Assembly (NCBI RefSeq): GCF_024502345.1
Contig: NZ_JALDNN010000001.1
From: Escherichia coli
Lineage (GTDB): Bacteria > Pseudomonadota > Gammaproteobacteria > Enterobacterales > Enterobacteriaceae
Length of the DNA stretch: 64,000 nt
Reading direction: 5' to 3' (one strand)
Part shown: positions 29,224 to 36,515 of the stretch, piece after piece
Layout of the letters: each line of letters begins with the position of its first letter
How positions within the stretch are numbered: the stretch's first letter is position 1
The notes under the pieces: generated by a model
The model's input: only the letters and a program-made list of their open reading frames with translations
The model's database searches: none
Told to the model about the DNA's origin: nothing
Position numbers and translations under genes: made by a program

Positions 29224-30435
29224 TTAAGCACCGCTGGCCGGGATCGGCATCTGTGATTTGCGGCTCATCAGAATAAATACCGCCAGGCCTGCCAGCAAAA
29301 TGCCCGGCGCAGAAGCCGCCATCACCCCTACCCTTCCGGTACCGAGCGCTAACATTTTCCCTGCCAGCAGCGGACCGCTCATCGCCCCCAGACGCCCGAC
29401 TGCGACGGCGGTTCCCACGCCTGTGGCGCGGATCTGCGTGCTGTAAAACAGCGGCGCCAGCGCATACAACACACTTTGCCCGCCGGTGGCGAACATCCCC
29501 GCCACAAATCCCGCCATTAGCATGCCGCTCAATGACGACACCGTACCCAGCGCCAGCAGTGAAGCCAACATCCCGGTGTAGATCAGCAGCGACATCACCA
29601 CCGGGCGCAGTTTATCCATTAACGCCCCGAGAATTAACGTGCCGCTGGCCGCGCCAATTTGCAGAGCAAACATTACGCCTGCCGCCTGCGATGGCCGAAA
29701 GCCCTGCTCCACCAGCAGCATCGGCAGCCAGTTGATCAGCATATACACCACCAGCAGGGTGAAGAAATAGCACAACCACAGCAGCAGCGTGGCACTCGCC
29801 GTCGCTGGCGCAAACAGGGCGCGCAACGGTGCGGCGGCCACCTGCGTTTGTTGGGTATAAACCTGAGATTCCGGCAGCCAGCGCATCAACAGCGGCACCA
29901 GCAGCAGCGGGATCACCCCGCCTACCCAGAACACCGTTTGCCAGGCGGAGGCCAGGCCGCTAAACCCGAGCGCTGCCGCCAGCGCCGCGCCAATCGGCAC
30001 ACCGCAGTACATCAGGCTCACCGCCGTACCGCGAAAACGCGGGCCCGCCGCCTCGGAAGTCAGCGCGATCAGATTCGGCAACGCCGCGCCCAGCCCGACG
30101 CCGGTCATCAGACGGGCAAACACCAGCGATGAGAAATCCCAGGAAATCGCCGTCGCCAGCGAGAACAGGCCGAACAGCGCCACAGAGGCAATGAGAATAC
30201 GCTTGCGGCCATAGCGGTCGGCCAGCATGCCGCCCACCAGCGCGCCGGGCAGCAGCCCGAGAATGCCCGCACTGAAGATCCAGCCCATCTGCATTTTATC
30301 CAGCGCAAACGCGTGGGCGATACCGACGGCAGCGATACCGGCGGCCTGTAAATCCAGCCCTTCCATCAGGGCAACTAAAAAGCAAAGCCCAACGGTCAAC
30401 GTCAGGCGGTAAGATGCGGAGGTACGGGTCGTCAT
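29224..30435 (-). CDS. mhpT: MFS transporter, MhpT-like (3-hydroxyphenylpropionate transporter), copy-2 cluster
   Basis: ORF 29224..30501; start placed at MTTRTSASYRLTLTVGLCFLVALMEGLDLQAAGIAA; matches MhpT as recalled with divergence. Confidence 0.8.
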   Translation of the reverse strand: MTTRTSASYRLTLTVGLCFLVALMEGLDLQAAGIAAVGIAHAFALDKMQMGWIFSAGILGLLPGALVGGMLADRYGRKRILIASVALFGLFSLATAISWDFSSLVFARLMTGVGLGAALPNLIALTSEAAGPRFRGTAVSLMYCGVPIGAALAAALGFSGLASAWQTVFWVGGVIPLLLVPLLMRWLPESQVYTQQTQVAAAPLRALFAPATASATLLLWLCYFFTLLVVYMLINWLPMLLVEQGFRPSQAAGVMFALQIGAASGTLILGALMDKLRPVVMSLLIYTGMLASLLALGTVSSLSGMLMAGFVAGMFATGGQSVLYALAPLFYSTQIRATGVGTAVAVGRLGAMSGPLLAGKMLALGTGRVGVMAASAPGILLAGLAVFILMSRKSQMPIPASGA

Positions 30436-30504
30436 AAGATGTCCCTCTGAGGTCACGATGCAGGTGAATCGCGGCTGATACGTTGCCAGCCGCGTAATCA
30501 TTTT

Positions 30505-31518
30505 TTATTTGCGGTTGCGCAGGTCCAGCGCTACGTCGACGATCATATCTTCCTGGCCGCCCACCATCCGACGTTTGCCCAGTTCCACCAGAATATCTAC
30601 TGCGCTCAGGCCATAACGTGCTGCCGCCACTTCGCAATGACGCAGAAAACTGGAGTACACCCCGGCATAGCCCAGCGCCAGCGTTTCACGATCCACCCGC
30701 ACCGGGCGGTCTTGTAGTGGACGCACTAAATCGTCGGCGGCGTCCATCAGTGCGTAGAGATCGGTTCCGTGCTGCCAACCAAGCTTATCCGCAGCGGCGA
30801 TAAATACCTCCAATGGTGCGTTGCCCGCGCCTGCGCCCATCCCTGCCAGGCTGGCGTCGACACGGTCACACCCCTCTTCTACTGCGGCAATCGAGTTCGC
30901 CACCCCAAGACTCAGGTTGTGATGCGCATGCATTCCGGTTTCTGTTTCAGGCTTCAGCACCGCTTTCAGTGCGCGGAAGCGGGCGCGAATATCGCTCATG
31001 TTCATTGCGCCGCCGGAATCGACCACATAAATACAGGTCGCGCCGTAGTTTTCCATCAGCTTCGCCTGCTGTGCCAGGTTCTCCGGTGTGGTCATATGGC
31101 TCATCATCAGAAAACCGACGGTATCCATGCCAAGCTCACGCGCATACTGAATATGCTGGGCCGACACATCCGCTTCAGTGCAGTGGGTCGCCACGCGCAC
31201 TACCCGTGCGCCGGCCTGATATGCATTTTTCAGGTCATGAATAGTGCCGATACCCGGCAGCAACAGCGTGGCAATTTTGGCATGCTTCACCACGTCCGCC
31301 GCCGCTTCAATCCACTCCAGGTCGCTGTGTGCACCAAAGCCGTAGTTGAAGCTGGAACCTTGTAAACCGTCGCCGTGGGCCACTTCAATAGAATCAACCC
31401 GTGCGTCGTCCAGCGCTTTGGCTATCTGGCGCACATTCTCCAGCGAATATTGATGACGAATAGCGTGCATACCGTCGCGCAGGGTCACGTCAGAGATATA
31501 GAGTTTTTTACCGTTCAT
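30505..31518 (-). CDS. mhpE: 4-hydroxy-2-oxovalerate aldolase MhpE, copy 2
   Basis: 337-aa [55 protein letters not shown]... Confidence 0.85.
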
Positions 31519-34175: not shown

Positions 34176-35129
34176 TTAGTTCTGTGTAGTGGCGCTCAGG
34201 GAGCCGAATCCGGCGATCCACTCCGGGATCGGGCGGTAATAACGGCCTTCGCTGCGCCAGTTGCCAAAAGCAGAAATGGCGGCAAAGGCGGCAAAGGCGG
34301 CAACCCAGGTTTTCACTTCGTGCGTTGATTTGCCCGCCATCGCGGACAGCTCTTCGTTACTGACCGCGTCCAGCCCCTGCAAACGCCCCTGCTCAAGCAG
34401 GGACATAAAACGGTTATCCCAGACAGGGTTAAGCGGGTGTAGCGTGTTTTGATCGACCACAAACTTCTCGGCGGCGCTGATCACCCGCTGCTGGCGCAGC
34501 TCGCGCTCGTTTTCAGGTAACTGTTTGCCACTGCCGAGCAGGCGGTCACGCATATGGGCATCAGCCTTCGCCAGCTCCGGTACCGGCGGCTGATGCGATA
34601 GCCCGCCGGAGCCTAAAAACAGCACGCGCTTATTCAGCGAGCTGGCGAAACGGCCAATCGCTTCACCGAGCATGCGGGTACGCTGAAAGCCCGGCAGCGG
34701 CGTTGCGACGCCGTTAATAAACACTGGCAGCACCGGCACCTTATCCAGGCCGCCGAGCAAAAACTCCAGCGGCTGCGCGAAGCCATGATCGACCTGCATG
34801 TTGTAGGACACGGCGAGATCGATACCGCTTTTCATTACCGCGTGGGCGCAGGCTTCAGCCAGATCTGTCGGCACCGGTAATTCCCCCGCCGCGCTACCAA
34901 AATCGCCGATCGCCGTAGCGCCAACGCCTAAACAGAACGGCGGCATCACGTCGTAGGAAAATCCGTTGTAGTGATCGGGGGCAAACAGCACGACCAGTTC
35001 AGGTTCGAACGCCGCAATACGTGCCCGAGCGCTGGCGATCACGCCATTAACCTCGTCGAGCACAGCCTGTGCCGGGTCGACATAGCCCACCAGCGGCGAG
35101 TGGGAAAGACAGTGAAGATAAGCGTGCAT
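34176..35129 (-). CDS. mhpB: MhpB extradiol dioxygenase, copy 2
   Basis: ORF 34176..35147; start placed at [49 protein letters not shown]. Confidence 0.85.
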
Positions 35130-35130
35130 A

Positions 35131-36515
35131 TCAGGCAACCTTTTCAACAGGAATGTCGGCAGTAGCGCGAGTGAGCGTCATCACCGACGCCAGTTTATTC
35201 AGGGTGCTGCCCAGGGTTTGCGGAATGGCGATGGCGGCCACGAAGCGGTCCGGACGCATGACTACCAGCGCGGCGTTGTGCTGGGCAAACCACGCGCGCA
35301 GGCGGTTTTGCGTATCGCCTATGCGGGTAACGCCGTCGTGGTTATCCTGATCGGTATGTATCTGCGTATCCGGCACGACCTGGATAAAACGCGTCCCCAG
35401 CGCCTGCCACTGTTGGATCTGCGCCTCGCTCATGCCCCATAGTGGGTTACAGCCCCAGCCAATCACCGCAAAATTCGGTCCGATGACGTTGTCGAGCAAC
35501 GTCACTTCGCCCGATTCCAGCGTCACCTTCGGCTGGATAAACATCTTGCCGACCGGTGAAGTTTTCGCGTCGCCTTCACGCACCAGCGCCCCGGCGTGGT
35601 ACTGCGGCATCGGCTTAAACCGCATTTCAAGGAAGTAGCGTTTGACCGGCGGAATATAGTTCAACAGCCAGGAAACCCCATCGCGTACCGCGCCGTGCCA
35701 GCGTTTGGGCGGCGCAAGTACGTTGCCAGCGGTCACGGAGAGGTCGATCATCGCTTTGGCGTGGTCGCGGCGTTCCTGCTGGTAGGTATCCAACAGCGCA
35801 TCGTCGGCTTTACCGTTAATCACCAGCGCCAGTTTCCATGCCAGGTTGAAAGCATCGCGCATGCCGCTGTTGTATCCCTGACCCTGCCAGACCGGCATAA
35901 TGTGCGCCGCATCGCCCGCCAGCAGCACGCGGTCAATACGAAAACGTTCGGCCAGACGAGCATTATGGGTATACACGCGCTGGCGGATCAGCTCGACGTT
36001 GTCCGGGTTCGGCAGCACTTTGCTCAGTAACTGGCGCATATTCTGCGGCTCGCTAAGCTGCGCTTCGGTTTCCCCCGGCATAACCATAAACTCAAAACGG
36101 CGCACCGCGTGCGGCAGCGCGGCAGAGACATACGGGCGCACCGGATCGCAGCATAAATACACATGCGGCGTGCTGAGCGGATCGTTGGCGATATCCACCA
36201 CAATCCACTGATTCGGCGCGGTTTTACCTTCAAACGGCACGTTCAGAGAACGTCTGACGTTGCTGCCGCCGCCGTCGCAGGCCACCAGCCACTGAGCCTT
36301 CACCGTTTCACGTTGACCGTCTGGCGCTTTCAGATTTAGCGTCACTTCGCCGTTTTGTTGGCTGAAGGCCTCCAGCTCGCGGGAGAACAGGCAGCGCACG
36401 TTGGGAAAACGCGACAACCCTTCCAACATCACCGCGTCCACCTGCGGCTGAATAAACGCATTACGACGCGACCAGCCAAATTCGTCGGTCATCGGCTGGA
36501 TATCAGCAAAGCAAC
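35131..36515 (-). pseudogene. mhpA: mhpA copy 2, 5'-truncated (first ~95 codons including FAD-binding N-terminus missing) by IS30
   Basis: Homology to copy-1 MhpA begins at ...[26 protein letters not shown] (copy-1 residue ~102); coding frame runs into IS30 left end at 36516. Confidence 0.8.

What the first reader, a model, noticed from the sequence alone, without database searches (positions are those of the whole stretch)
29224..36515. Second, divergent mhp catabolic cluster (mhpT-E-F-D-C-B-A') 23 kb from the canonical mhp operon
The window contains the canonical mhpR/mhpABCDF locus next to lacI (1-6114) and a second co-linear set mhpT, mhpE, mhpF, mhpD, mhpC, mhpB, mhpA at 29.2-36.5 kb. 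In the mhpD segment compared, copy 2 is ~88% identical at nucleotide level and ~92% at protein level, so it is not a recent duplication but a diverged xenologue, probably horizontally acquired. Copy-2 mhpA is cut by IS30 (FAD-binding N-terminus lost) and no mhpR or promoter accompanies it, so the downstream meta-cleavage genes are intact but probably orphaned. It lies where K-12 has IS5/ykfC, inside the CP4-6-like accessory region. A chimeric assembly is an alternative explanation.
Basis: seen in the sequence. Interest (0 to 1): 0.55.

Follow-up and report, generated by a model that had tools for sequence, protein, structure and literature searches.

The report
Citrobacter-derived second mhp cluster, regulator lost
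This E. coli carries, besides its own genes for breaking down 3-hydroxyphenylpropionate, a second set that came from a Citrobacter chromosome and lost its first enzyme's front end, its promoter and its regulator; it travels next to a known heat-resistance island, is already annotated in about 2% of E. coli genomes, and is an ordinary hitch-hiking remnant.

Summary
Window 1-4808 and 31686-36513 form a direct repeat at 82.5% nucleotide identity. That makes two mhp clusters, both on the minus strand.

Copy 1 lies next to mhpR and lacI and is the native E. coli allele (98% to K-12). Copy 2 (mhpT-E-F-D-C-B-A', 29224-36513) is not a duplication. It belongs to one collinear 10.65 kb block, afuC'-mmuM-mmuP-mhpTEFDCBA' (25864-36513). 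This block is 98.2% identical to the Citrobacter portucalensis chromosome and nests inside Citrobacter with 100% bootstrap.

It is not an assembly chimera, because 120 of 5426 complete E. coli genomes carry it at 99.8-100% identity. E. coli C is one of them. In 89 genomes it is joined to the LHR/tLST1 heat-resistance island.

K-12's CP4-6 genes mmuPM-afuCB' are a stump of the same segment, cut by IS5 98 bp beyond the mhpT stop codon.

MhpA lacks residues 1-94. No copy-2 mhpR or mhpA promoter region is present, here or in any E. coli genome searched.

The break is a fusion to the interior of an IS911-type element. 67 genomes have it without IS30. IS30 inserted there later, at a hot spot.

The six remaining genes are intact here but show early decay elsewhere. 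This is ordinary and largely already recorded.

The parts
1..5090 (-). Copy 1, the native E. coli cluster: mhpF' (1-780, cut by the window start), mhpD 777-1586, mhpC 1596-2462, mhpB 2480-3424, mhpA 3426-5090 (554 aa, full length)
   Evidence: 97.97% identical to K-12 over 16 kb. ORFs and translations.
5281..6114 (+). mhpR, the only mhp regulator gene in the window. It belongs to copy 1. The mhpR-mhpA promoter region lies at 5091-5280.
   Evidence: Coordinates mapped from the K-12 annotation. tblastn with Citrobacter MhpR hits only 5281-6090, and the Citrobacter intergenic region hits only 5090-5280.
25097..25864 (+). IS1 (IS1B type). It is the left border of the Citrobacter-derived block in this genome. 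On its left it abuts a prpR stump of 135 bp.
   Evidence: 99.7% identical to K-12 IS1B. K-12 prpR alignment ends at window 25096.
25865..26518 (+). afuC' (fbpC), the 3' fragment of the ferric ABC transporter ATPase gene, truncated by IS1. First piece of the Citrobacter-derived block.
   Evidence: Annotated as a TOBE-domain fragment in AH04. 98.6% identical to C. portucalensis. 99.94% identical to K-12.
26627..27559 (-). mmuM, homocysteine S-methyltransferase
   Evidence: RefSeq annotation of identical DNA. Collinear with Citrobacter.
27546..28949 (-). mmuP, S-methylmethionine permease. K-12 identity ends at 29125/29126, where K-12 has IS5A.
   Evidence: In the roughly 680 E. coli genomes that have mmuP but not copy 2, the sampled matches stop at this same base.
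29224..30435 (-). mhpT, copy 2 (403 aa, intact)
   Evidence: NF008586 equivalog, 601.7 bits against a cut-off of 410. 99% protein identity to C. portucalensis.
30505..31518 (-). mhpE, copy 2 (337 aa, intact)
   Evidence: TIGR03217, 600.8 bits against 286.
31515..32465 (-). mhpF, copy 2 (316 aa, intact)
   Evidence: TIGR03215, 461.5 bits against 282.
32462..33271 (-). mhpD, copy 2 (269 aa, intact)
   Evidence: NF008461, 565.3 bits against 350. The identical protein occurs in intact Citrobacter-type loci L059 and L060.
33281..34147 (-). mhpC, copy 2 (288 aa, intact)
   Evidence: 92.4% protein identity to copy 1 MhpC. RefSeq names it the 2-hydroxy-6-oxonona-2,4-dienedioate hydrolase. No MhpC-specific NCBIfam model passed; the best hit is the bphD family, below its cut-off.
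34176..35129 (-). mhpB, copy 2 (317 aa). It carries a 9-bp in-frame tandem duplication (AAF) that Citrobacter and the basal E. coli alleles lack.
   Evidence: NF009907, 683.3 bits against 549. Indel states.
35131..36513 (-). mhpA', copy 2: codons 95-554 only, with an open frame. The FAD-binding N-terminus is missing.
   Evidence: NF004827 matches model positions 95-554 of 554. Alignment to Citrobacter mhpA stops at 36513.
36508..36515 (.). Fusion point between mhpA' and the IS911-type element. AAAGCA (36508-36513) is shared by both partners as microhomology. AC (36514-36515) is the IS30 target duplication.
   Evidence: Sequence comparison of carriers, Citrobacter and K-12.
36516..37736 (+). 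IS30 (1221 bp; transposase 36578-37729). A secondary insertion flanked by AC/AC.
   Evidence: Present at this junction in 31 genomes and absent in 67. It sits at the same IS911 position as K-12 IS30A.
37737..38642 (+). Right-hand part of an IS911/ISEc52-type IS3-family element, lacking its left part.
   Evidence: RefSeq annotation. 99.4% identical to K-12 IS911A-1 over its first ~425 bp.
38651..39838 (-). IS256-family transposase gene fragment, followed by further transposase remnants up to about 40.7 kb.
   Evidence: RefSeq annotation of 99.85%-identical DNA.
40936..55949 (+). Locus of heat resistance (LHR1/tLST1): HTH orf1, sHSP20, clpK (41927-44809), ftsH-type protease, sHSP20-GI, yfdX1, yfdX2, hdeD-GI, trx-GI, kefB-GI, psiE-GI, htpX-type and DegP-type proteases.
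   Evidence: RefSeq annotation of NCTC11121, 99.8% identical. GC content 62.2%. Described in Mercer 2015, PMC4563881.
56174..56749 (-). IS5 fragment that closes the island. K-12 CP4-6 DNA (yafY' to ykfI) resumes at 56779.

Best explanation
Shown:
- Copy 2 is the end piece of a single captured stretch of Citrobacter chromosome. The donor belongs to the freundii complex, closest to C. portucalensis.
- In Citrobacter the native gene order is mhpR - mhpABCDFE - mhpT - mmuP - mmuM - afuCBA.
- In E. coli the stretch always ends inside afuB (at IS1) on one side. On the other side it always ends at codon 95 of mhpA.
- At the mhpA end it is fused, across 6 bp of microhomology, to the interior of an IS911/ISEc52-type element.
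- The stretch lies in the CP4-6 accessory region. In most carriers it is joined by IS debris to the LHR/tLST1 heat-resistance island.
- K-12 keeps only mmuPM-afuCB', because an IS5-bounded deletion removed everything beyond mmuP.
- The IS30 in this window is a later hot-spot insertion, 2 bp inside the IS911 part.

Inferred:
- The deletion that made the fusion removed MhpA residues 1-94, the MhpR/CRP-dependent mhpA promoter and mhpR.
- mhpT follows mhpE after only 69 bp, so it probably has no promoter of its own.
- The remaining genes therefore have no dedicated promoter and cannot be induced by 3-hydroxyphenylpropionate.
- They encode enzymes that duplicate those of copy 1. They are carried along as passengers of an island that spreads between E. 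coli lineages by recombination.
- They look intact mainly because the acquisition is recent, and they are beginning to decay.
For: Origin:
- Window 26609-36513 is 98.2% identical to C. portucalensis A60. Window 25864-36513 is 92% identical to C. braakii and C. youngae in single collinear alignments. The native E. coli copy is 82.5% and Klebsiella 78-79%.
- In a neighbour-joining tree, copy 2 groups with C. portucalensis 100/100 and falls inside the freundii-complex clade 100/100.
- Two further genomes (L059, L060) carry the identical MhpD in an intact mhpR-mhpA...afuA locus. They are 97.2-97.3% identical to the window over 10,650 bp in one alignment.
- The synonymous divergence from C. portucalensis is 0.061.
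- Divergence between the two window copies is even along the length. The longest identical run is 36 bp.

Not an artefact:
- 120 of 5426 complete genomes have the mmuP-mhpT junction.
- 97 cover at least 80% of 29000-38000; the best-matching records listed are 99.8-99.9% identical.

Borders are the same everywhere:
- No E. coli genome matches Citrobacter-type mhpR plus the 5' end of mhpA.
- None has Citrobacter-type afuB 5'/afuA above 90% identity.

K-12 stump:
- Window 25864-29125 is 99.94% identical to K-12 and ends at IS5A.
- K-12 mmuP-afuB' is 98.6-98.9% identical to C. portucalensis.

LHR linkage:
- 89 genomes carry 35000-42500 as one unit, out of 119 genomes with a full LHR.

Spread within E. 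coli:
- The island is 99.8-99.9% identical between this strain and NCTC11121. The native flank is only 96.4-97.5% identical.

Orphan status:
- MhpA' covers model positions 95-554 only.
- There is a single mhpR and a single promoter region in the window.
- No sigma-70 consensus hit lies on the minus strand anywhere in 29000-41000.

Decay in other carriers:
- mhpD nonsense mutation in CFSAN051542.
- mhpA' frameshift in JMF1.
- mhpT truncated and the rest deleted in 2017.01.04CC.
- 9-bp indels in mhpB and mhpC.
- Among 10 copies, 10 non-synonymous against 10 synonymous changes in mhpT-mhpB. The ratio against Citrobacter is 0.03-0.08.
Against: - All six genes downstream of mhpA' are intact in this window and in most sampled carriers.
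- The polymorphism sample is too small to separate relaxed selection from the usual excess of recent non-synonymous changes. The dead mhpA' fragment itself shows 3 non-synonymous against 7 synonymous changes.
- The promoter scan is a crude consensus match. It cannot exclude weak, internal or IS-derived promoters, or read-through from the IS256 fragment on the same strand.
- No expression data were available.
- The route by which the Citrobacter DNA entered E. coli is not established.
- Whether it entered together with the LHR is also not established.
- At least one inversion separates the K-12 architecture from the carrier architecture, and I could not reconstruct it.
Confidence: 0.75

Rival explanations
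1. Copy 2 is still a working pathway module. MhpB-C-D-F-E and MhpT are transcribed from an internal or IS-derived promoter, or by read-through. They add capacity for 2,3-dihydroxyphenylpropionate, which copy-1 MhpA or the Hca enzymes produce. They are kept by selection.
For: Six intact reading frames here and in most sampled carriers. Strong matches to the curated family models. The cluster persists in 120 genomes from diverse hosts and sources.
Against: There is no regulator and no native promoter, and no consensus promoter on the coding strand. Several carriers show a nonsense mutation, truncation or whole-cluster deletion, and K-12-type genomes lost it entirely. Non-synonymous and synonymous changes are 10:10 among E. 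coli copies. Diversity is so low (about 0.1%) that intactness is expected even without selection.
Confidence: 0.2
2. One reading: IS30 truncated mhpA. It did so either by inserting and deleting adjacent DNA, or by recombination between two IS30 copies. The IS30-free junctions are later losses.
For: IS30 abuts mhpA' exactly in this window. The junction falls at the very IS911 position where K-12 carries IS30A, a coincidence that suggests some role for IS30.
Against: 67 genomes have the junction without IS30 and 31 have it with IS30. The alleles closest to the Citrobacter root lack IS30. The IS30-bearing allele is exactly the empty allele plus IS30 plus an AC duplication, which is the mark of a simple insertion. 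Precise excision that restores a non-IR target is reported not to occur for IS30 (PMC9333248). The same site in other IS3-family copies also carries IS30 (K-12 IS30B/ISX and JMF1), which fits a hot spot.
Confidence: 0.12
3. Copy 2 is an intragenomic duplicate of the native operon that diverged in place, or an assembly or contamination artefact.
For: Same gene order and orientation as copy 1, 31.7 kb away on the same strand.
Against: It is 82.5% identical to copy 1 but 98.2% to C. portucalensis, with 100/100 bootstrap. It is contiguous with mmuPM-afuC, as in Citrobacter. Identical junctions occur in 120 independent complete genomes, including long-read assemblies and NCTC strains.
Confidence: 0.01

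Closest known systems
E. coli K-12 mhp operon (mhpR, mhpABCDFE, mhpT): the 3-hydroxyphenylpropionate meta-cleavage pathway
   Same: Same seven structural genes in the same order. Proteins are 90-92% identical to the native copy in this window. The same curated family models are matched.
   Different: No mhpR and no MhpR/CRP-dependent promoter. MhpA lacks residues 1-94. mhpT follows mhpE after 69 bp, against 577 bp in K-12. Nucleotide identity is only 82.5%. The location is the CP4-6 accessory region rather than next to lacI.
Chromosomal mhpR-mhpABCDFE-mhpT-mmuPM-afuCBA locus of Citrobacter portucalensis and other freundii-complex species
   Same: Collinear and 97-98% identical over the whole 10.65 kb block. 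The gene order is conserved across at least 10 Citrobacter species at 88-98% identity.
   Different: The E. coli version is cut at both ends, in afuB/afuC by IS1 and at mhpA codon 95 by fusion to an IS911-type element. It sits among IS remnants.
K-12 cryptic prophage CP4-6 segment IS5A - mmuP - mmuM - afuC - afuB' - IS1B
   Same: The same DNA, 99.94% identical, with the same IS1B|afuB' border in carriers that keep it (E. coli C, S1-NGR-02-A). Also the same IS911 remnant, and K-12's ykfC corresponds to the group II intron reverse transcriptase found next to it.
   Different: K-12 lacks everything between mmuP and the intron (copy 2, IS256', LHR). The IS911-intron block has the opposite orientation relative to mmuP.
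Locus of heat resistance / transmissible locus of stress tolerance (LHR1, tLST1)
   Same: Physically linked: 89 of about 119 E. coli genomes with a full LHR have it joined to mhpA' as here. Both are foreign DNA bounded by IS elements, as the LHR literature describes (PMC4563881, PMC8290217).
   Different: Copy 2 is not one of the LHR genes. It has a different GC content (58% against 62%) and a different source, namely an enterobacterial chromosome. The LHR papers I read do not mention it.

Membership tests
mhp 3-hydroxyphenylpropionate catabolic operon | Meta-cleavage enzymes MhpB, MhpC, MhpD, MhpF, MhpE and transporter MhpT present and full length | tested here: met
   Equivalog models passed for MhpT, E, F, D and B. 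MhpC is 92.4% identical to native MhpC and full length. There are no internal stops.
mhp 3-hydroxyphenylpropionate catabolic operon | Complete MhpA hydroxylase with its N-terminal FAD-binding fold | tested here: not met
   Only model positions 95-554 of 554 are present. The N-terminal 100 residues of Citrobacter MhpA hit only copy 1.
mhp 3-hydroxyphenylpropionate catabolic operon | Divergent IclR-type activator mhpR and the mhpR-mhpA promoter region | tested here: not met
   The only hits in the window are at 5281-6090 and 5090-5280, both in copy 1. No Citrobacter-type mhpR exists in any of 5426 E. coli genomes.
mhp 3-hydroxyphenylpropionate catabolic operon | Induction by 3-hydroxyphenylpropionate and growth on it | not testable with these tools
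   This needs expression and growth experiments.
Xenologue acquired from Citrobacter (horizontal transfer) | Nests within the donor clade rather than with the host's own orthologue | tested here: met
   100/100 bootstrap with C. portucalensis and within the freundii complex. Copy 1 groups with Escherichia 100/100.
Xenologue acquired from Citrobacter (horizontal transfer) | Flanking synteny matches the donor, is patchy in the recipient, and has mobile elements at the borders | tested here: met
   Collinear with mmuPM-afuC as in at least 10 Citrobacter species. Present in 2.2% of E. coli genomes. IS1 and an IS911-type element lie at the borders.
CP4-6 accessory region of E. coli | Same chromosomal place and same flanking genes as K-12 CP4-6 | tested here: met
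   K-12 CP4-6 DNA lies on both sides: afuC-mmuP at 99.94% and yafY'-ykfI at 99.8%. E. coli C has yagE-yagB-IS1-afuB' to the left, as K-12 does.
LHR / tLST heat-resistance island | Being one of the island's own genes (sHSP20, ClpK/ClpG, FtsH, YfdX, KefB-GI and others) | tested here: not met
   Copy 2 lies about 4.4 kb outside the first LHR gene, separated by IS30, IS911', IS256' and other remnants. It has different GC content.
IS30 composite transposon (considered) | Two IS30 copies as the ancestral borders of the captured segment | tested here: not met
   IS30 at the mhpA' end is absent in 67 of 98 junctions and in the basal alleles. At the afuB' end only a 181-bp IS30 fragment lies beyond IS1B.

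The most novel reading that the evidence does not exclude
The Citrobacter segment and the heat-resistance island entered E. coli together, as one composite block that had been assembled in a Citrobacter chromosome next to mhpR/mhpA. If so, the mmuPM-afuCB' stump in K-12's CP4-6 is a relic of a lineage that once carried the LHR. The same stump lies between IS1 and IS5 on hundreds of F-type plasmids. 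The copy-2 and mmuPM DNA would then serve as a homology arm that lets the chromosomal LHR recombine into K-12-like strains. This would explain the low-frequency transfer of chromosomal LHR1 into MG1655 reported by Boll et al. 2017 (PMC5383660).
Probability: 0.25. Interest if true: 0.45.

Novelty: already known. Interest (0 to 1): 0.22.

Why it matters
It matters modestly.

- The second cluster is already annotated in about 120 RefSeq genomes. It is listed, without comment, among the genes unique to E. coli C (mhpA_2 to mhpF_2 and pcaK_2; PMC6805351).
- This analysis adds its provenance. It shows where the K-12 mmuPM and afu genes came from: a Citrobacter chromosome fragment of at least 11.4 kb.
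- It shows that K-12's CP4-6 is a deleted version of an architecture still complete in E. coli C.
- It shows that about three quarters of full LHR copies in complete E. coli genomes sit in this one place, beside copy 2. That gives a simple marker for the location of the heat-resistance island.
- It also suggests how the island moves between strains, by recombination through shared CP4-6 flanks.
- In metabolic models or pan-genome counts, copy 2 should be treated as a regulator-less remnant and not as a second functional pathway.

Tried and rejected
1. Recent duplication or gene conversion. Rejected: divergence is an even 78-87% along the repeat and the longest identical run is 36 bp.
2. Klebsiella as donor. 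Rejected: only 78-79% identical.
3. A plasmid-borne copy. None was found in 72,556 plasmids above 83% identity.
4. An untruncated copy 2 in E. coli. There was no match to Citrobacter-type mhpR plus mhpA 5' in 5426 genomes. An earlier, longer query was uninformative because the native copy outranked it.
5. Extension of Citrobacter DNA beyond afuB'. Absent. Only a different afuAB-like locus at 84% identity was found, in 515 genomes.
6. IS30 excision as the source of the IS30-free junctions. I held this view for a while, because the junction coincides with K-12's IS30A site. I dropped it after the junction counts, the rooted SNP pattern and the statement that IS30 does not excise precisely.
7. 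An IS30 composite transposon as the capture vehicle. Not supported, for the same reasons.
8. A step-by-step reconstruction linking the K-12 and carrier architectures. At least one inversion is needed and I could not resolve it.
9. A selection test on within-E. coli polymorphism. Too few sites to decide.
10. Literature searches linking the LHR with mhp, CP4-6 or Citrobacter. Nothing found.
11. tRNA scan for thrW. The window contains no tRNA gene.

Full report
**Observation**

A self-comparison of the window finds one long direct repeat, 1-4808 against 31686-36513. It is 82.46% identical over 4828 columns.

Both arms encode mhp genes on the minus strand.
- The first arm (mhpF' D C B A, 1-5090) lies beside mhpR (5281-6114), lacI and lacZYA. 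It is 97.97% identical to K-12 over 16 kb. It is the native cluster.
- The second arm is part of mhpT-E-F-D-C-B-A' at 29224-36513.

NCBIfam equivalog models are passed by the copy-2 MhpT, MhpE, MhpF, MhpD and MhpB. The MhpA fragment matches model positions 95-554 of 554. MhpC has no specific model hit, but it is 92.4% identical to native MhpC.

Per gene, the copies are 81-85% identical in DNA and 90-92% in protein. The nucleotide figure is too high (83.3%, not 88%). Only one 300-base stretch reaches 87%.

**Not a duplication and not an artefact**

Divergence is even along the repeat and the longest identical run is 36 bp. So there has been no recent duplication or gene conversion.

Among 5426 complete E. 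coli genomes:
- 120 carry the mmuP-mhpT junction.
- 97 cover at least 80% of 29000-38000; the best-matching records listed are 99.8-99.9% identical.
- Carriers include NCTC strains, food and wastewater isolates, the probiotic G3/10 and the laboratory strain E. coli C.

A chimeric assembly is excluded.

**Origin**

I scanned one genome per bacterial species with MhpT of copy 2. The best hits were Citrobacter portucalensis (99% protein identity), C. werkmanii (98%) and several further freundii-complex Citrobacter, including C. braakii and C. youngae (95-97%). Escherichia follows at 89-90% and Klebsiella at 79-83%.

At DNA level the similarity is not confined to mhp.
- Window 25864-36513, from the afuC fragment through mmuM, mmuP and the whole of copy 2, aligns as one collinear block.
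- It is 98.2% identical to C. portucalensis A60, 92% to C. braakii and C. youngae, and 88-91% to other Citrobacter.
- A neighbour-joining tree on 4.8 kb puts copy 2 with C. portucalensis in 100 of 100 bootstraps.
- The same tree puts it inside the freundii-complex clade in 100 of 100. Copy 1 falls with Escherichia in 100 of 100.

The identical MhpD protein also occurs in two further NCBI genomes. Their locus is complete: IclR-type MhpR, 554-residue MhpA, B, C, D, F, E, T, MmuP, MmuM and AfuC, B, A. These loci are 97.2-97.3% identical to the window over 10,650 bp in a single alignment. They are 97.5% identical to C. portucalensis A60.

The order mhp-mmu-afu is thus native and conserved in Citrobacter. 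In E. coli it is rare and bordered by IS elements. This sets the direction of transfer.

**Borders and relation to K-12**

The left border in this window is IS1 (25097-25864), cutting afuC. In E. coli C, S1-NGR-02-A and K-12 the same IS1B cuts afuB a little further out.

No E. coli genome holds Citrobacter-type afuB 5'/afuA. None holds Citrobacter-type mhpR plus mhpA 5'. So every E. coli copy descends from one captured fragment of at least about 11.4 kb.

K-12's CP4-6 segment afuC-mmuM-mmuP is 99.94% identical to the window. The identity ends at window 29125, exactly at the end of K-12's IS5A and 98 bp beyond the mhpT stop codon. K-12's mmuP-afuB' is itself 98.6-98.9% identical to C. portucalensis.

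Of the 798 genomes that hold the 3' end of mmuP, 120 continue into mhpT. In the rest, every sampled match stops at that same base. These include about 320 plasmid records on which IS1-afuC'-mmuMP-IS5 has been mobilised.

K-12 is a deletion derivative. Its ykfC corresponds to the reverse transcriptase of a group II intron. In E. coli C and others that intron is intact inside the same IS911 remnant.

**The break in mhpA**

Similarity to Citrobacter mhpA ends at 36513. IS30 starts at 36516.

The same break exists without IS30.
- AH04, an ExPEC isolate from mussels, S1-NGR-02-A, E. coli C and others read ...AAAGCAAC|CGCGCTCTTG. That is, mhpA' runs straight into the right-hand part of an IS911/ISEc52-type element.
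- Across the collection, 67 genomes have this IS30-free junction and 31 have the IS30 junction.
- Most IS30-bearing alleles read ...GCA AC [IS30] AC CGCGCTC. This is the empty site plus IS30 plus a 2-bp duplication.
- This window and NCTC11121 carry small extra deletions next to the right end of IS30.
- When the sites are polarised with Citrobacter as outgroup, the basal alleles all lack IS30. These have G at 29333, and the most basal also lack the 9-bp duplication in mhpB.
- Work on IS30 reports that hot-spot insertion gives 2-bp repeats. It also reports that precise excision restoring a non-IR target does not occur (PMC9333248).

I conclude that mhpA was truncated by a deletion fusing it to the interior of the IS911-type element. 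The two partners share AAAGCA at the crossover. IS30 inserted afterwards.

The site is evidently an IS30 hot spot. K-12's IS30A sits at the same position of IS911A. K-12's IS30B fragment abuts the homologous position of ISX. The IS30 in strain JMF1 abuts the same motif in another IS3-family copy. I first read this coincidence as evidence that IS30 made the break and later excised. The counts, the rooting and the literature argue against that.

**Neighbourhood**

To the right of the IS911 remnant lie an IS256 fragment and other transposase remnants. Then comes the complete locus of heat resistance (40936-55949, GC 62%), closed by an IS5 fragment. After that, K-12 CP4-6 DNA resumes.
- 149 genomes have some LHR match and 119 have a near-complete one.
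- 89 have mhpA' and the start of the LHR joined as in this window.

Copy 2 is thus the usual neighbour of the chromosomal LHR1 in E. coli.

Between this strain and NCTC11121 the island is 99.8-99.9% identical. The adjacent native cyn-cod-prp DNA is only 96.4-97.5% identical. This indicates that the island has moved between E. coli lineages.

The LHR papers I could read describe flanking mobile elements, but not mhp, mmuP or CP4-6. The E. coli C genome paper lists mhpA_2 to mhpF_2 and pcaK_2 among strain-unique genes, without comment. An earlier study noted only that mmuPM in E. coli is confined to K-12 strains and lies in CP4-6 (PMC3228920).

**Function**

Shown:
- MhpA lacks residues 1-94.
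- The window holds only one mhpR, one MhpA N-terminus and one mhpR-mhpA intergenic region, all in copy 1.
- mhpT follows mhpE after 69 bp.
- A simple sigma-70 consensus scan finds no site on the coding strand anywhere in 29000-41000.

Inferred: the cluster cannot respond to 3-hydroxyphenylpropionate through MhpR, and it probably has no promoter of its own.

The six remaining genes are intact here. Elsewhere they show:
- a nonsense codon in mhpD (CFSAN051542);
- truncation of mhpT with loss of all other copy-2 genes and of the LHR (2017.01.04CC);
- in-frame 9-bp indels in mhpB and mhpC;
- a frameshift in the mhpA' fragment (JMF1).

Against C. portucalensis the ratio of non-synonymous to synonymous divergence is 0.076. 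Against other Citrobacter species it is 0.03-0.04. Among ten E. coli copies there are 10 non-synonymous (one nonsense) and 10 synonymous changes in mhpT-mhpB. This fits relaxed constraint, but the sample is too small to prove it. The dead mhpA' fragment shows 3 against 7.

My reading is a recently acquired, regulator-less passenger that is starting to decay (about 0.6-0.7 for that part). The alternative is residual expression with some benefit (about 0.2).

**Verdict**

One error needs correcting, the role of IS30.

The feature is a known kind of thing and is already annotated and listed. The added value is provenance and context. Interest is low to moderate.

Noticed in passing
window 24960-25864: IS1 cuts prpR after its first 135 bp and joins it directly to the afuC fragment. 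Relative to K-12, about 70 kb (yahO through afuB', including the bet, ykg, yag and argF regions) is missing, and the prpBCDE operon has lost its activator. No complete genome matched window 22000-31000, which spans the junction, in one contiguous piece; the four best covered it only in 3-4 joined pieces. Other carriers have different IS1-adjacent deletions (yahM|IS1, lldP|IS1, ykgE'|IS1).
   Followed up: partly
window 40936-55949: A complete locus of heat resistance (LHR1/tLST1). Here clpK is 2883 bp including the stop codon (960 aa, 41927-44809), 33 bp longer than the 949-aa form in NCTC11121. Both lengths occur among carriers.
   Followed up: partly
window 36516-37745, K-12 (L047) 12541-12542 and 22112-22115, and JMF1 (L049) ~18135: IS30 ends lie again and again at the same motif (ATATTAAAAAAGGCTAC / AAAAAAAGCAAC) in the orfA region of different IS3-family elements: IS911A, ISX, and one in JMF1. 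This appears to be a natural IS30 hot spot. Small deletions of 2 and 4 bp in a CGCG run lie right next to the IS30 right end in this window and in NCTC11121.
   Followed up: partly
L057 (plasmid p4_1_1.1) 3877-8574, and about 320 plasmid records: The K-12-type stump, IS1 - afuC' - mmuM - mmuP - IS5, with the same IS5 breakpoint as K-12, sits on many E. coli plasmids. The Citrobacter-derived S-methylmethionine genes have evidently been mobilised from the chromosome onto plasmids.
   Followed up: partly
window 57982-59595 and 60353-61966: Two paralogous CP4-type modules (ykfI/yafW toxin-antitoxin, ykfH, ykfG and others) lie head to head at 78% identity. Identity to K-12 CP4-6 ends at 60068, inside the 3' fragment of thrW. 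The window contains no tRNA gene, so the attachment region is rearranged and a second CP4-like element follows.
   Followed up: no
window 18730-19068 and 23712-23805: A 94-bp tandem array (3.6 copies, 95% matches) lies between codB and prpE. A related single unit lies between prpC and prpB, where K-12 and NCTC11121 have three. They look like REP/BIME-type intergenic repeats with variable copy number.
   Followed up: no
E. coli genomes hit (for example NZ_CP195962.1 502923-506013): 515 E. coli genomes carry a different afuAB-like ABC transporter locus next to a uhpC-like gene. It is 84% identical to the Citrobacter afuBA and is distinct from the Citrobacter-derived afuCB' stump in CP4-6.
   Followed up: no
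L068 (E. coli C, NZ_CP020543.1 3603860-3636449): The laboratory strain E. coli C carries the most complete and most ancestral-looking version: yagE-yagB-IS1-afuB'C-mmuMP-copy 2-IS911'::group II intron-IS256'-LHR. It has no IS30 at the junction and no 9-bp duplication in mhpB. Its LHR ftsH-type gene is frameshifted.
   Followed up: partly
window 34269-34286 (mhpB copy 2): A 9-bp unit (GCGGCAAAG on the plus strand, encoding AAF) is present once in Citrobacter and the basal E. coli alleles, twice here, and three times in CFSAN051542 and two other genomes. This is a small slippage-prone repeat inside mhpB.
   Followed up: partly
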